Of a stretch of DNA of 64,000 nt, positions 38,534 to 64,000 are shown one piece after another. Position numbers and translations under genes: made by a program. The notes beneath the pieces are model-generated. The model was not told where the DNA came from. It did not search any database and saw only the letters and a list, made by a program, of their open reading frames with translations. How positions within the stretch are numbered: the first letter of the stretch is position 1; each line of letters opens with the position of its first letter. This DNA comes from Dictyostelium discoideum (taxonomy: Eukaryota): assembly GCA_000004695.1 (NCBI GenBank), contig CM000155.2, positions 288,001 to 352,000 of the forward strand. Direction: 5' to 3'.

Positions 38534-41500
38534 TTAAAATAGTAATACAATTAAAATTAAAATAAATATTAAATTAATATTATTATTTAATGAATTTGTT
38601 ATTGTTAAATTTAATTGATTATTATTTTTTGAATAATCAGTTTCATCAATGAATTGATTTTCATTAATTATAATTTCATTTGAAGAAATACCACCAAAAC
38701 CACCAAAAGAAAATGATAATTTATATGTTGATTTATTTATTCTTATTTTCCTTTCAATAAAATTAAAAATAAATAAACCATTTTTTTCAAAATTATTTAT
38801 TGATGATGATGTTGATAAAAGAAAATGACTAAATGGTATTGAAGTACCATCTAATTTTGATAATAAATTTAATGATGAATATGAATCAATTGAAATTTCA
38901 TTACAATTTAATGAACCATTTATATAAATTTTTGAAATATAAAAATTATTTTCAAAATTTCCATTTTCATCTTGAAAATTTTCTTTACCAATTCTAACAT
39001 CATAAATTATTGGTTTAACCAAGAATCTATAATTAACATTTGTAAATATATCACCAACATAATTAATTAAATCACATTTATTAATTACAATTTCATTTAA
39101 ATTACTATTATTGCATATCATTGTATTTGTATAAATTATATTTTCATTATTATCATCATCATCATCATCATCATCATTATTATTATAATTATTAATACTA
39201 TTTATACAATTTAATTTATTATTTAAATAAGTAATATTTGATGATAATGATAAATTTAAACCAGTAATTAAAAATTGATTATTAATAAAATTAATATTTT
39301 GAATTATTTGATTTGGTAAATTTATAAAATAACTATTATTTGATTTTACATTAAAAAATGTAAAATAAATATTAAAAATACCATTACTTTGTAAAGGTTT
39401 TGAATTAAATTGAAATTTAAAATTTAAAATATTATTATTATTATTATTATTATTATTACTATCAAAACTTAATAATGGATAACGTTCACTTGTATCATTG
39501 ATAACATCTGTTATTATACCTGTACTATTTTCATAAAATTCTTTACCTTTTAAAGTACATTGCATTGTTTCTACTTCCACCTCTATTAATTTTCCATCAA
39601 CTTTTAAAAATTTAACCAATGGTCTAATGAAATACATTATTCTACCACTATAAAACGAACCATAATAATCAATATATCCACAATCATCTCTACCACAACT
39701 CGTATCATTTCCATTGATTTTAATACATTCTTCACTATTTGGTAAATAACAAATTGTTTCACTATCACATTTTAATTGAATTGAATTGAATTTAAATTTA
39801 GTTGTTTTACTTAAATTGAAACCATCAATTATTAATTTACCACTACCACCACCCCCAGCAGATTCATTTTCTACTGATATAGTTTTAATAGTTGGTTCAA
39901 TAATTCTATATTTATATAATGCTAAACCTGTTTCTTTAAATTTAAATGAAAAATAAAATTCATCATTCTTTTGTGGTATTTTACAATTTGGAAATATAAA
40001 ATAAAATAAACCATTTTTAAATTCTAATAATGATGATTGTGAATAATTATCAGCATCAATATAAATATTACTATTCATATATTGATCTGGTGTTATTGCT
40101 TCACATCTAAGTGTTGCATTAATTATTAAATAATTTTTTGATAAATTATCATCACAAGTATTAAAATTTTCATCATCTTCATTTTCATCAGATTTAAAAT
40201 TTAATGAATAAATTTCCGCTGCATAATATTGATAAACTAAACTATATTTTCTATCACTATAAATAATTTGGCCACATGTCAAAAATGTATTATCATTATT
40301 AATTGTTGTTGGGAAATAACATTTAATTGAATAACCTTTAATTACATTCTCACATATTAAAATTGTATTTGAAAATTTTACAGTTGCATCTTTTATTAAA
40401 TTATCACCATTAATTATTATACTTGAAACAACACCATCACTACTATTAATATAATTTGAACTTTCAATTTTTGGTATTAAATATTGAAATGGTGAAATTT
40501 CATCAGAAGATATACCATTAATAGTTATTTTTAAAACTGTGAAATCCATTGAAAAATCTGATGGTAATGTACAAGTGATTTCAGTTTTATTTATTAATTT
40601 TGCATTTTCACAAAAAGTTTGTTTTGATGATATATAATTTAAAATTGATAAATTTGTTGTTGCTATTCCTTCTTCATTATTATTATCAATAAAATAATAA
40701 CCCTTAATAGTTATATTTTGATCACCAATTGGATAAATTTCAATTTTATTTTCACTTTCAATACCAATATTAATAATTGGTTTAATATTTAAAGTTAATT
40801 CATTTGATATAATACCATACTCTTTAACTCTAATAAATACTGTTTCATTTAACGTTAATTCTAATAATAATTTATTATTAAATCTACAAAAAATTAAATT
40901 ATATTCAATATTATCATCAATATCACAATCTAATGCAATATCAATTTCATTATTATTATAATCTGATTCTTTAACCCAATAAATTGAAATTGGTTCATTT
41001 AATAATTTAATTGGATTTGATAATCCTTTACCCTCAATTTTAAAATACATTTGAAATACTTGTGTAATTTGAACTAAATGTGGTATTGATTGGTTGAATT
41101 TAAATTGAATGATTTCATAATTTCCAATTTTTATATTTGATAAAATTTCATTTCTTATTATCATATCATCATCATCAATTGGTGATGGTGTTGGTGTTGG
41201 TATTAAAATTTTACATTGAATATATTGATTGGTTAAATTTAAAACTTGACTTATATTTAAGCAATCAATAAATGTAATACCATTATCAATACTAATTGTA
41301 ATATTATAATTTATATTATTAAATGGTTGCCATAAATAATTACCAAAATAGTAAATTGTTAATATTGTTTCATTGATTGTTGTTGTTTTTGATATACTAG
41401 TTTGTGCATTTATTATTATTGGTGTCATATCAATTTCAAGAAAAAGTTTATTTGATTCTTCTATTATTGTAAATCTTTTATTTACAACTGTGAAATTACA

Positions 41501-41866
41501 ATTTGTTAAAGTTTGTGGTATTGTTACAATAATAATTTTTGAATCATTGAATAAATAACTTTGTTCAACAATTAATGGTGATTCACCATTTTCCACTAGA
41601 AAATAAACTTTTGAAAATTCTGTAAATCCATCTCCATTTATAGTTATATCTAATTTATTTTGTGAATAACTATATATTTCCAAACAACTATAAAAAAGTA
41701 AAAATAAAATAAAAAAAAAATTAAAAAAAAATAAAAAAAAGTGTTTTATTTTAATAAAAACAGTGTTTCGAGAATATTTTTTTTATTTTAACCACACATA
41801 CCTCGATTTACTGGCAAAATATAAAATTATAATTAATAAACTGATAATTTGTTTTAAACTCATCAT
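38534..41866 (-). CDS. IPT/TIG-domain cell-surface glycoprotein (Tgr-like family candidate) with signal peptide and C-terminal hydrophobic GPI/TM tail; two exons, 41802..41866 and 38534..41687
   Basis: Exon 1 MMSLKQIISLLIIILYFASKS + AG ends at donor GTATGTGTGG; acceptor TTTTTATAG at 41689-41688 (phase 2). The tool's Met at 41683 is a TTG. The body is very N-rich with many N-x-S/T sites. IPT-like segments occur, e.g. PTIKTISVENESAGGGGSGKLIIDGFNLSKTTKFKFNSIQLKCDSETICYLP. It ends NINLIFILILIVLLF*. Confidence 0.65.
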
Positions 41867-42302
41867 TACTAAAAATTATAAAGTACGAGTGATGCTAATA
41901 AACGAGATGATTTAAAAAAAAAAAAATAAATAAAAAAAATAAAAAAAATAAAAAAAAAATAAAGATATTCCAAAAAAAATCATTTTTTTTATTTTTTTCA
42001 TTTTTTTTTTTTATTTTTTTTTTTTGATCAATTTCGTCCAACTCTTACTATCGTTTTTTTTTTATTATCATAAAAAAAAAAAAAAAAAAAAAAAAAAATT
42101 AAATAAAAAAAAAATATATTTTCCAAAAGAATTTTTTTTTGAAATATAAAAAAAATAAAAAATAAAAAATAATTTAATAACTAAATCTCAGATTTATTTT
42201 TAATAATTGTTTTCCATTTTTATTTCTATTTTTTTTTTTTTTATTTTTTTTTTATTTATTTATTTTTTTTTTATTTTTTATTTATTTTTTATTTATTTTT
42301 AT

Positions 42303-63400: not shown

Positions 63401-63531
63401 AAAATAATAAATCAAATAAAAATACAATTGATGATAAACAAACCAACAATGAAATCAAAAATGAATCCATAAAAAGAAATATAAATTTAATTTTATTTAT
63501 AATTATATTCTCAACGATTTTAATCATTTAA
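60468..63531 (+). pseudogene. Degenerate tandem copy (copy 2) of the 56609..59624 gene: signal exon region deleted, frameshifts, and an internal in-frame 630-bp tandem duplication
   Basis: It has the same N-terminal [17 protein letters not shown]... as copy 1, but the frame breaks after ~190 codons (three successive ORFs 60468.., 61172.., 61528..). The block starting GGAGACCAACTAACCCGTACTG occurs at 61921 and again at 62551. The ~0.8 kb upstream that carries the signal exon in copy 1 is missing. Confidence 0.7.
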
Positions 63532-64000
63532 TTTAATTTATTATTTTCGTTATAAAAAAAAAATTAAACTCCTACCAAAAAAAATTATTGAGTATATATA
63601 AAAAATGATTATTTTTAGTGGTTTTGTGTTAAATAAAAAAAAAAAATAATACAATAATAAATTTTGAACATGTTGTTTTTTTTTTTTATAATTTTTTTTT
63701 TTTTTAATTATTTTTAAAATAATTATTTTTTTGTTTTTACTATTTGATAAGTGTGTTATTGTGAATTTGATAATTAAAATAATATATAAAATCAAAAATA
63801 ATTAAAAATATAACCACTTCTCATAAACTACTTTTTATGGTAGTGGGTGAAAAAAAAAAAAATAATAATTTTCATTTCAATTAAAAAAACAAGCCCAAAA
63901 AAGTTTAATACAATTAATAATATTCTAATATGATGAAAGAAACATCAAGTGGTGGGTGTGGTAAACTTGGCACACAGTGTTAAAAAAAAACAATATGAGT

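What the first reader, a model, noticed from the sequence alone, without database searches (positions are those of the whole stretch)
38534..63990. Cluster of IPT/TIG-domain (Tgr-like) cell-surface glycoprotein genes undergoing birth-and-death evolution
Three apparently intact genes sit here (38534..41866 -, 45292..48043 -, 56609..59624 +). Each has a short signal-peptide exon, a heavily N-glycosylatable body with GG(T/S)-I-G-NL-C IPT/TIG signatures, and a C-terminal hydrophobic anchor. They lie together with two pseudogenised tandem copies and several tiny dispersed fragments. In Dictyostelium this architecture matches the polymorphic Tgr allorecognition family, but that assignment is from domain motifs only. 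Such loci are hotspots of gene conversion and kin-recognition diversity.
Basis: partly seen in the sequence, partly recalled or inferred. Interest (0 to 1): 0.7.

Follow-up and report, generated by a model that had tools for sequence, protein, structure and literature searches.

The report
Known Dictyostelium tgr gene cluster
This is an already annotated stretch of Dictyostelium discoideum chromosome 6 that holds a TgrC-like surface-protein gene, the start of the tandem tgrA gene array with its dead copies, and one unrelated orphan glycoprotein gene; the family's gene birth and death has already been published.

Summary
All three gene models, with their short first exons, translate exactly to annotated D. 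discoideum AX4 proteins. The two dead copies and the tiny fragments are real.

- **45292..48043 (-):** a member of the TgrC/D/K clade, 62-64% identical to TgrC1/LagC and TgrD1.
- **56609..59624 (+):** tgrA1 (DDB_G0291622), the first intact unit of a same-strand tgrA array that continues past the window end.
- **38534..41866 (-):** DDB_G0291450 is not demonstrably a Tgr. It has no Pfam hit and no significant similarity to the other two genes, only weak IPT/TIG-like segments.

Birth and death is supported directly:
- A copy without exon 1 carries two 1-bp deletions and an internal 630-bp duplication.
- A rearranged 3' fragment lies upstream of tgrA1.
- Array units have mosaic ancestry (Fisher p=2.7e-7).
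- A relic in AX4 is collinear with an intact gene in a sister lineage.
- Another isolate shows a synteny break and at least four intact units.

Two 2025 papers already describe this family as a birth-and-death exemplar.

One minor extra: both Tgr genes here lack the canonical cytoplasmic tail, one through an old, retained 1-bp frameshift inside the transmembrane-coding segment. No allorecognition role is shown for these genes.

The parts
38534..41866 (-). DDB_G0291450: orphan secreted or anchored glycoprotein candidate, 1072 aa. Exon 1 is 41866-41802 (signal-like) and exon 2 is 41687-38534. It ends in the hydrophobic tail ...INLIFILILIVLLF. It is not a demonstrable Tgr.
   Evidence: Exact match to EAL61709/XP_635216. 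No Pfam hit at E<=10. Close homologues were found only in the discoideum clade: ACTFIY 1081 aa at 93% and ACTFIR 1072 aa. The ORF is intact in all three, with dN/dS 0.58-0.74.
39779..40666 (-). Weak IPT/TIG-like segments inside DDB_G0291450 (aa 363-424, 443-482, 620-658).
   Evidence: A full HMMER scan of 1.8 billion representatives found only TIG-repeat proteins as distant hits, on aa ~363-483 (E 7.8e-8 to 3.5e-4). An ad hoc TIG HMM built from those hits matches the three segments (i-E 3e-6, 7e-4, 1e-2). Coordinates.
44930..45065 (+). Relic of a lost tgrA-type gene: two short pieces matching tgrA1 58097-58171 and 59068-59155.
   Evidence: blastn 82-85% and tblastn hits from 17 tgrA-family proteins. 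The pieces are collinear with an intact 959-aa tgrA-type gene that sits in this same interval in 'D. cf. discoideum' ACTFIY (L001 2775-6500).
45292..48043 (-). TgrC/D/K-clade gene, 894 aa (EAL61711/XP_635218; inferred DDB_G0291454). Exon 1 is 48043-47953 and exon 2 is 47885-45292. It is unpaired and has no cytoplasmic tail.
   Evidence: Exact protein match. Pfam Ig_TgrO1 (1.5e-26) and TIG (2.2e-20). 62-64% identity to TgrC1/LagC alleles and TgrD1. The AF2 model is all-beta with pLDDT ~80-90 over aa 30-740, and its best Foldseek hits are titin, plexin and contactin Ig strings. dN/dS 0.20-0.45.
45352..45360 (-). Site of a 1-bp deletion (GGTGG-GCA) that shifts the frame inside the ancestral transmembrane-coding segment. 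The new tail reads [20 protein letters not shown].
   Evidence: The alternative frame reads [17 protein letters not shown]..., matching TgrD1 AIAGITIGCVAGAGAL.... A DNA alignment with a canonical TgrD1-like gene shows the single-base gap. The same shifted tail occurs in 12 close relatives across five genomes; the canonical TM plus tail occurs in TgrC1, TgrD1 and D. citrinum/firmibasis homologues.
48641..48706 (-). 66-bp relic of the 3' coding end of the TgrC-like gene, lying upstream of it next to a strain-specific synteny breakpoint.
   Evidence: 94% identical to 45398-45465. Collinearity with isolate ACTFIR ends at window 48636.
54766..55712 (+). Dead 3' fragment of a tgrA unit (equivalent to tgrA1 aa ~515-829). 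It contains an inverted ~200-bp piece (54943-55139) and a frame break near 55300. Its 3' flank homology continues to 56227.
   Evidence: tblastn and blastn, 82-97%.
56609..59624 (+). tgrA1 (DDB_G0291622), 846 aa. Exon 1 is 56609-56687 and exon 2 is 57163-59624. This is the short-tail form, ending ...[17 protein letters not shown].
   Evidence: Exact match to EAL61795/XP_635221. Pfam Ig_TgrO1 4.2e-33 and TIG 9.5e-11. The 2541-nt CDS equals the published tgrA1 exonic length, and the accession arithmetic also reproduces tgrA3 and tgrA4. Homology to long-form tgrA3 ends at about 59508.
60123..63531 (+). tgrA pseudogene (tandem unit 2; coding homology from 60435). It lacks exon 1, has 1-bp deletions at ~60883 and ~61413, and has small in-frame indels.
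   Evidence: Its ancestry is mosaic relative to its neighbours.
61906..63176 (+). Internal tandem duplication of 630 bp within the pseudogene (61906-62546 = 62536-63176, 98.8% identical).
   Evidence: Self-blastn and tblastn showing aa 522-721 repeated.

Best explanation
The region is the proximal edge of the tgr gene cluster on D. discoideum AX4 chromosome 6.

Contents, in window order:
- an orphan, weakly TIG-like glycoprotein gene (DDB_G0291450);
- one unpaired gene of the TgrC/D/K clade;
- after an unrelated ankyrin-kinase gene, the first three units of the head-to-tail tgrA array: a rearranged 3' fragment, intact tgrA1, and a frameshifted pseudogene without exon 1. The array continues beyond the window with a unit that is probably tgrA2, a further unit and long-form tgrA3.

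Shown:
- The proteins are strings of Ig-like (Ig_TgrO1 and IPT/TIG) domains behind a signal-like N-terminus, ending in a terminal hydrophobic segment.
- The locus changes by tandem duplication, by recombination or gene conversion between units, by small frameshifting deletions, and by large deletions that leave short relics.
- Copy number and neighbourhood differ between isolates.

Inferred:
- The intact genes encode surface-displayed adhesion or recognition molecules of the multicellular stage.
- Both have lost the canonical cytoplasmic tail, so they can present or bind a partner but cannot signal the way the receptor TgrB1 does.
- The TgrC-like gene lost its tail through a 1-bp frameshift in the TM-coding segment. 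tgrA1 lost its tail through replacement of its 3' end.
- They are not the allorecognition pair itself.
For: - Identity: exact matches to AX4 proteins. tgrA naming comes from the CDS length and accession-to-ID arithmetic, which reproduces three published tgrA IDs.
- Family: Pfam; 62-64% identity to TgrC1/TgrD1; hhalign between the two families at 99.95%; all-beta multi-Ig model with plexin, titin and contactin fold hits.
- Array: same-strand units 846 / pseudogene / 844 / 857 / 1087 aa in the near-identical lab-strain assembly. This matches the published description of tgrA as the one cluster of unpaired, same-strand genes (10.1101/2025.10.22.684067).
- Death: pseudogene; fragment; relic collinear with an intact ACTFIY gene.
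- Recombination: the pseudogene groups with the next unit in its 5' part (51 vs 20 sites) and with tgrA1 in its 3' part (39 vs 13); Fisher p=2.7e-7.
- Strain differences: synteny break at 48636, and at least four intact units about 75 kb away in ACTFIR.
- Constraint on the intact genes: dN/dS 0.2-0.45.
- Expression: tgrA1 transcripts at 9 h of development in strain QS33, 21 direct-RNA reads.
- Tail loss.
Against: - No functional data exist for tgrA genes or for this TgrC-like gene. The papers state that most tgr genes have unknown function and low expression in clonal AX4 development.
- The TgrC-like gene is absent from the published list of tgr genes with detectable direct-RNA reads. It may be silent, or it may simply not be annotated as a tgr.
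- Signal peptide, membrane or GPI anchoring and glycosylation are read from the sequence only; no dedicated predictor was available.
- dN/dS rests on two pairwise comparisons, and orthology is uncertain within the array.
- The dictyBase names of the TgrC-like gene and of the pseudogenes were not retrieved.
Confidence: 0.85

Rival explanations
1. The locus is itself a kin-recognition (allorecognition) locus like tgrB1/tgrC1. On this reading the three genes are polymorphic recognition determinants whose diversity sorts strains during aggregation.
For: - The TgrC-like gene is 62-64% identical to the known ligand TgrC1.
- Synonymous divergence is higher in the tgr genes (dS 0.14-0.26) than in flanking genes (0.02-0.12).
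- Array composition differs strongly between isolates.
Against: - No TgrB-like partner lies head-to-head. The 2.9 kb upstream holds no ORF of 60 aa or more and no Tgr relic other than a 66-bp self-fragment, and a TgrE-like N-terminal probe found nothing.
- The cytoplasmic tail is lost.
- AX4 vs ACTFIR protein identity is 94%, the same as the neighbouring non-Tgr genes (92-98%).
- The closest paralogues carry the same shifted tail and sit on the 6.43-Mb AX4 chromosome. If they are tgrC2/C3-type genes (inferred), that group is reported as relatively conserved.
- The literature states that only tgrB1/C1 have known discrimination roles.
- The first gene is not a Tgr.
Confidence: 0.08
2. The two 'intact' Tgr genes are functionally dead or dying. 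Losing the TM plus cytoplasmic tail was the first step of pseudogenisation, and the open frames merely have not yet decayed.
For: - Both lack the canonical C-terminus.
- Neighbouring copies are plainly dead.
- Most tgr genes are weakly expressed in AX4 (legend of Fig. S2).
- The TgrC-like gene is not listed among expressed tgr genes.
Against: - ORFs of 846-894 codons persist in ~20% G+C DNA.
- dN/dS is 0.2-0.45.
- The shifted tail stays hydrophobic in 12 proteins that have diverged to ~70% identity, across five genomes including cryptic-species isolates.
- The tgrA short tail is likewise conserved across isolates and multiple copies.
- tgrA1 transcripts are detected at 9 h.
Confidence: 0.2
3. 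DDB_G0291450 is a Tgr gene that has diverged beyond recognition, rather than an unrelated TIG-like family.
For: - It shares the gene plan: a short signal exon, one long exon and a terminal hydrophobic tail.
- It sits beside tgr genes in three genomes.
- It has several I-x-I-x-G-x-N-(F/L) motifs and weak TIG matches.
- UniRef labels it 'IPT/TIG domain-containing'.
- The local hhalign matches fall on TIG-like motifs.
Against: - No Ig_TgrO1 or TIG Pfam hit.
- phmmer and blastp against both neighbours are non-significant.
- hhalign probability is below 6%.
- Its only distant HMMER hits are generic TIG-repeat proteins; no Tgr protein appears among them.
Confidence: 0.3

Closest known systems
tgrA cluster of D. 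discoideum (tgrA1 DDB_G0291622, tgrA3 DDB_G0291668, tgrA4 DDB_G0291514)
   Same: The third gene is tgrA1 itself. The units are unpaired, head-to-tail and on one strand, as published for tgrA. The family is reported to duplicate prolifically (PMC12745789).
   Different: Nothing differs in kind. Details added here: the exact lesions of the pseudogene, mosaic ancestry between units, and the distinction between short-tail units (tgrA1 type) and long-form units with a TM plus PPNQ-repeat tail (tgrA3/A4 type).
TgrC1 (LagC/gp150) and TgrD1, ligand-type Tgr proteins of the allorecognition system
   Same: 62-64% identity over about 95% of the length, the same Ig_TgrO1 plus TIG architecture, and a signal exon followed by one long exon.
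   Different: This gene is on chromosome 6 and has no head-to-head TgrB/E-type partner. A 1-bp deletion replaces the GxxxG-rich TM and the basic cytoplasmic tail with a frame-shifted hydrophobic end. No sign of extreme polymorphism appeared in the few comparisons made.
Metazoan IPT/Ig-string ectodomains (plexins, MET, contactins, titin Ig)
   Same: The predicted fold is a chain of Ig-like beta-sandwiches. Foldseek gives E 1e-14 to 1e-11 to these proteins.
   Different: No sequence-level relation to any solved structure. There is no sema, PSI or kinase module. The resemblance is at the level of domain fold only.
Birth-and-death multigene families (MHC, other recognition families)
   Same: Tandem duplicates, pseudogenes, relics, presence/absence between lineages, and inter-copy recombination.
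   Different: This is a haploid amoeba, and no recognition function has been demonstrated for these particular members.

Membership tests
Tgr ('Tiger') family: second gene, 45292-48043 | Ig-like E-set/IPT-TIG repeats (Pfam Ig_TgrO1 PF24612 and TIG PF01833) and sequence homology to named Tgr proteins | tested here: met
   Both Pfam families score above the curated cut-offs. 62-64% identity to TgrC1/LagC and TgrD1.
Tgr ('Tiger') family: third gene, 56609-59624 | Ig-like E-set/IPT-TIG repeats and identity with a named tgr gene | tested here: met
   Pfam hits. CDS length and ID correspondence to tgrA1. hhalign to the TgrC/D family at 99.95%.
Tgr ('Tiger') family: first gene, 38534-41866 | Detectable homology to Tgr proteins or the Tgr-specific Ig_TgrO1 module | tested here: not met
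   No Pfam hit at E<=10. phmmer and blastp non-significant. hhalign probability 2.6% and 5.7%. Only generic weak TIG matches.
Tgr ('Tiger') family: all three genes | N-terminal signal sequence | tested here: inconclusive
   A hydrophobic N-terminus is encoded by a short first exon in each gene. No dedicated signal-peptide predictor was available.
Tgr ('Tiger') family: second and third genes | Single-pass transmembrane domain followed by a cytoplasmic tail | tested here: not met
   Both proteins stop 0-4 residues after a terminal hydrophobic stretch. The canonical TM plus tail is lost by frameshift in one gene and by 3' replacement in the other. Published work accepts some tgr members without a TM, such as tgrB2, so family membership is not affected.
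tgrB1/tgrC1-type allorecognition pair | Head-to-head B-type/C-type gene pair sharing a promoter | tested here: not met
   No ORF of 60 aa or more, and no Tgr-like relic other than a 66-bp self-fragment, in the 2.9 kb upstream of the TgrC-like gene. A TgrE-like probe of only 156 aa found nothing.
tgrB1/tgrC1-type allorecognition pair | Extreme within-species polymorphism | tested here: inconclusive
   AX4 vs ACTFIR: 94% aa identity, like the flanking genes, but dS 0.14 against 0.02-0.07. Only two or three genomes were compared.
Birth-and-death multigene family | Tandem duplicates together with pseudogenes and lineage-specific gain or loss | tested here: met
Birth-and-death multigene family | Sequence exchange (recombination or gene conversion) between copies | tested here: met
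   In three-unit site patterns, the odd-one-out switches between the 5' and 3' parts; Fisher p=2.7e-7.
GPI-anchored surface proteins | C-terminal omega site, spacer and hydrophobic signal, with lipid-anchor attachment | not testable with these tools
   All three proteins end in a hydrophobic stretch at the extreme C-terminus, which is compatible with a GPI signal. No GPI predictor or biochemistry was available.

The most novel reading that the evidence does not exclude
The tail-less forms are selected variants rather than decay products.
- A 1-bp frameshift inside the TM-coding segment of a TgrC/D-type gene created a new hydrophobic C-terminus.
- That C-terminus has been kept through several duplications and across discoideum-clade lineages.
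- Independently, a 3'-end replacement gave the amplified tgrA1-type units a similar short anchor.
- Both would yield surface-displayed (possibly GPI-linked) 'ligand-only' or decoy Tgr proteins that bind but cannot signal.
- DDB_G0291450 would be a young, lineage-restricted TIG-like gene born in the same unstable neighbourhood.
Probability: 0.3. Interest if true: 0.45.

Novelty: already known. Interest (0 to 1): 0.22.

Why it matters
The Tgr family underlies self/non-self recognition in a model of aggregative multicellularity. Its reservoir of paralogues has been proposed to replenish recognition diversity.

This window shows the family's dynamics compactly: duplication, inter-copy exchange, frameshift decay and erosion to relics. 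All of this is already in the reference annotation and in two 2025 papers, so it adds confirmation rather than discovery.

The point that may be worth a specialist's glance is that both Tgr lineages here carry conserved tail-less C-termini, one made by reading the old transmembrane segment out of frame. If these proteins are made, they separate the binding function of Tgr proteins from their signalling function.

Tried and rejected
- **AlphaFold2 on DDB_G0291450**, with its only two-sequence alignment, gave pLDDT 26. The model was unusable, so no fold search was run on it.
- **Pfam at E<=10**, a PDB sequence search and the word-indexed protein search (only orthologues) told nothing about that gene.
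- **A PDB sequence search with the TgrC-family profile** found nothing.
- **Full-text searches** for DDB_G0291450, DDB_G0291454 and for tgrA/tgrK names mostly returned unrelated papers.
- **Benabentos et al. 2009**, which named the family, is not held. The PNAS paper has no supplements held. The dictyBase name of the TgrC-like gene and of the pseudogenes therefore stays undetermined.
- **Frame-shift origin of the tgrA1 short tail:** I tested whether it is a frame-shifted version of the tgrA3 TM region. It is not; homology simply ends at about 59508.
- **A second signal exon for the pseudogene** was sought and not found.
- **Overall dN/dS above 1** was not found in any comparison, so positive selection is not claimed.
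Full report
**Source and observation**

This gave proteins of 1072, 894 and 846 aa. Each is identical, residue for residue, to a Dictyostelium discoideum AX4 entry:
- EAL61709/XP_635216, 'hypothetical protein DDB_G0291450';
- EAL61711/XP_635218, 'IPT/TIG domain-containing protein';
- EAL61795/XP_635221, 'immunoglobulin E-set domain-containing protein'.

All three lie on a contig of 3,602,379 bp.

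Each protein starts with a hydrophobic segment and ends with a hydrophobic stretch at the very C-terminus. N-X-S/T sequons number 27, 24 and 28. Against shuffles of the same composition, only the third is clearly enriched (28 vs 14.5 +/- 3.2); the second has p=0.03 and the first p=0.075.

**Dead copies and fragments**

tblastn and self-blastn show a near full-length copy of the third gene at 60435..63531. The repeat unit itself starts at 60123, inside the equivalent of the intron.
- The copy has no counterpart of exon 1 anywhere.
- It has 1-bp deletions at about 60883 and 61413, plus two small in-frame indels.
- It has an in-frame 630-bp internal tandem duplication (61906-62546 = 62536-63176).

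Upstream, 54766..55712 is a 3' one-third fragment. It contains an inverted ~200-bp piece (54943-55139) and a frame break.

Two tiny relics exist. One, at 44930..45065, resembles the third gene. The other, at 48641..48706, is 94% identical to the 3' end of the second gene.

**What the genes are**

Pfam places the second and third proteins, and the pseudogene ORFs, in Ig_TgrO1 (PF24612) plus IPT/TIG (PF01833), well above the curated cut-offs.

The second protein is 62-64% identical to many TgrC1/LagC alleles and to TgrD1. It is 70-72% identical to two AX4 paralogues on the 6.43-Mb chromosome. It therefore belongs to the TgrC/D/K clade defined in PMC12745789.

The third protein is tgrA1. The evidence comes from a supplementary table of bioRxiv 10.1101/2025.10.22.684067:
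- It lists tgrA1 = DDB_G0291622 with an exonic length of 2541 nt, exactly 846 codons plus stop.
- GenBank accession numbers and DDB_G numbers run in parallel in this stretch (EAL61709 = DDB_G0291450, step 2). This arithmetic gives DDB_G0291622 for EAL61795.
- The same arithmetic gives DDB_G0291668 (tgrA3) for paralogue EAL61818 and DDB_G0291514 (tgrA4) for EAL61741. Both are listed as tgrA genes in that table.

By the same arithmetic the second gene would be DDB_G0291454. That ID is inferred, and I could not retrieve its gene name.

The two families are homologous along about 700 columns (hhalign probability 99.95%, E 1.9e-38).

An AlphaFold2 model of the second protein, built on 20 sequences, has mean pLDDT 74 and about 80-90 over residues 30-740. 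It is all-beta. Its best Foldseek matches are strings of Ig-like domains: titin, plexin-A ectodomains, contactins and MDGA1, at E 1e-14 to 1e-11. No solved structure is related at the sequence level.

**The first gene is different**

DDB_G0291450 has no Pfam match even at E<=10. It has no significant similarity to its two neighbours, and hhalign probabilities against their family profiles are 2.6% and 5.7%.

The word-indexed search found only its own cluster and an 89-93% identical orthologue in a 'D. cf. discoideum' genome. A 1072-aa orthologue is also called at the syntenic place in isolate ACTFIR.

An exhaustive HMMER scan of 1.84 billion representatives found five distant hits (E 7.8e-8 to 3.5e-4). 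All are proteins made of 4-15 TIG repeats, and all match residues ~363-483. A TIG profile I built from those hits matches three segments of the protein at i-E 3e-6 to 1e-2. The I-x-I-x-G-x-N-(F/L) motif recurs about six times in the sequence.

It is thus a lineage-restricted, weakly TIG-like surface-protein candidate. It shares the gene plan of the Tgr genes, but it is not shown to be one. Its >1000-codon frame is kept open in three genomes, with dN/dS 0.58-0.74. AlphaFold2 failed on it (pLDDT 26).

**The array and other genomes**

A near-identical lab-strain assembly (locus-tag prefix ACTFIT; 99.2% identical to window 46600-64000) is probably the AX2-214 genome of PMC12745789; that attribution is inferred. 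In it the same-strand series is:
- the fragment;
- tgrA1 (846 aa);
- the pseudogene, called there as a 963-aa gene;
- an 844-aa unit (EAL61817, inferred DDB_G0291666);
- an 857-aa unit with an aberrant N-terminus;
- tgrA3 (1087 aa);
- then unrelated genes.

The window therefore holds only the first three units. [quoted passage not shown]

In isolate ACTFIR, collinearity with the window runs from 37232 to 48636 and then stops, next to the 66-bp relic. At the break there is a piece of tgrA 3' flank. The ACTFIR tgrA-type array has at least four intact units of 843-851 aa. It lies about 75 kb away on the same contig, beside a DDE transposase gene and inverted tgrA fragments.

In 'D. cf. discoideum' ACTFIY, an intact 959-aa long-form tgrA-type gene sits between the TgrC-like gene and the acidic-protein gene. 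AX4 has only 522 bp in that interval, and its two relic pieces are collinear with that gene. This is direct evidence of erosion of a gene to relics in the AX4 lineage. A less parsimonious alternative is an insertion in the other lineage that happened to leave collinear matches.

**Exchange between copies**

I aligned the tgrA1 unit, the pseudogene unit and the next unit. Identity varies from 77-95% in the intron and 5' coding part to 97.5-99.5% in the middle.

Sites where one unit is the odd one out switch along the alignment:
- In the 5' part the pseudogene agrees with the next unit (51 sites against 20).
- In the 3' part it agrees with tgrA1 (39 against 13).
- Fisher p=2.7e-7; chi-square over five segments p=3e-8.

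The units therefore have mosaic ancestry, as expected from unequal crossing-over or gene conversion.

**Divergence**

NG86 estimates against ACTFIY:

| Genes | dS | dN/dS |
|---|---|---|
| The two Tgr genes | 0.23-0.26 | 0.42-0.45 |
| DDB_G0291450, the P450 gene and the acidic-protein gene | 0.03-0.12 | 0.26-0.58 |

Against ACTFIR, the TgrC-like gene has dS 0.14 and dN/dS 0.20. Its protein identity is 94%, no lower than that of its neighbours.

No comparison gave dN/dS above 1. These are few pairwise comparisons and orthology inside the array is uncertain, so I claim only purifying selection on the intact genes and elevated silent divergence.

**Tail-less C-termini**

TgrC1 and TgrD1 end in a glycine-rich TM and a short basic tail. 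The second gene ends instead ...[26 protein letters not shown].

Read in another frame, the same DNA gives [17 protein letters not shown], matching TgrD1's AIAGITIGCVAGAGAL. A DNA alignment with a canonical TgrD1-like gene shows a single missing base in GGTGG-GCA at 45352-45360, followed by about 45 nearly identical bases.

The shifted, still hydrophobic tail is shared by 12 close relatives in five genomes. The canonical end is kept in TgrC1, TgrD1 and the D. citrinum and D. firmibasis homologues. The frameshift is therefore old and has been retained.

tgrA1 lost its tail differently. Homology to long-form tgrA3 (TM plus a PPNQ-repeat cytoplasmic tail) ends at ...GGNNLIIY, about position 59508. 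The last 38 residues are unrelated in any frame. This short tail is conserved in the other short units of AX4 and in ACTFIR, ACTFIW and ACTFIZ.

Neither 2025 paper mentions a frameshift or GPI anchoring. I could not check the rest of the literature.

**Mechanism**

Shown:
- Ig-string ectodomains.
- A duplication, exchange and decay dynamic.
- Differences between isolates.

Inferred from family knowledge (TgrB1 receptor and TgrC1 ligand binding in trans, with cytoplasmic domains signalling; PMC12745789): the intact genes encode surface adhesion or recognition molecules of the multicellular stage. Lacking a cytoplasmic tail, they can only present or bind.

tgrA1 is transcribed at 9 h of development in strain QS33 (21 direct-RNA reads). 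Most tgr genes are weakly expressed in clonal AX4 development (legend of Fig. S2).

An allorecognition role is not supported. There is no paired B-type gene, no extreme protein polymorphism, and the literature restricts that role to tgrB1/C1.

**Novelty**

The genes are annotated. [quoted passage not shown] The finding is correct but already known, and I score its interest low.

The residual novelty lies in three points: the conserved tail-less variants, especially the out-of-frame transmembrane segment; the relic-versus-intact comparison; and the orphan status of DDB_G0291450.

Noticed in passing
window 45352-45360 (-): A 1-bp deletion inside the ancestral TM-coding segment of the TgrC-like gene makes a new, still hydrophobic C-terminus and removes the cytoplasmic tail. 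The shifted tail is shared by 12 relatives in five genomes.
   Followed up: yes
window ~59508-59624 (+): The last 38 codons of tgrA1 are unrelated to the TM and cytoplasmic region of long-form tgrA3. This short hydrophobic tail is conserved in the amplified units of several isolates.
   Followed up: yes
window 48636; L002 9217-9416: Collinearity between AX4 and isolate ACTFIR ends at window 48636, next to the 66-bp relic. At the ACTFIR side of the break lies a ~140-bp piece of tgrA 3' end and flank.
   Followed up: partly
window 50918-53906 (+); L004 22168-22306: An ankyrin-repeat protein kinase gene with a long poly-Q tract separates the TgrC-like gene from the tgrA array. A 139-bp piece, 93.5% identical to its 51623-51761, lies beside the ACTFIR tgrA array, so kinase fragments travel with the array.
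   Followed up: no
L004 17860-18234 and 22399-23275: In ACTFIR the tgrA-type array is followed by a DDE_Tnp_4 transposase gene and by inverted tgrA fragments.
   Followed up: no
L003 13338-16853 (= window ~59946-63461): The AX4 pseudogene (two frameshifts, no exon 1) is called as an intact 963-aa gene in the near-identical lab-strain assembly. This is probably an annotation artefact that bridges the frameshifts.
   Followed up: no
window 56760-56830 and 56960-57016: The 475-bp intron of tgrA1 holds a T-run of about 70 bases and an A-run of about 60. The duplication junction of the next unit falls in this intron.
   Followed up: no
window 42303-44395 (-): An acidic, E/D-rich gene (611 aa in ACTFIR, 625 aa in ACTFIY) lies between DDB_G0291450 and the TgrC-like gene. 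It is conserved at 94-98% and was used as a neutral neighbour for the divergence comparison.
   Followed up: partly
window 35966-37543 (-), 35423-35495 (+), 22825-22905 (-): A cytochrome P450 gene with a poly-Q/poly-N insertion lies just left of the finding. tRNA-Glu(UUC) and tRNA-Leu(CAA) genes lie further left.
   Followed up: no
L002 vs window 37232-48636: Two genomes both labelled D. discoideum differ by about 11% at the nucleotide level over 11 kb here (dS 0.02-0.14 in coding parts). This is high for one species and may reflect a divergent isolate or indel-rich AT tracts.
   Followed up: no
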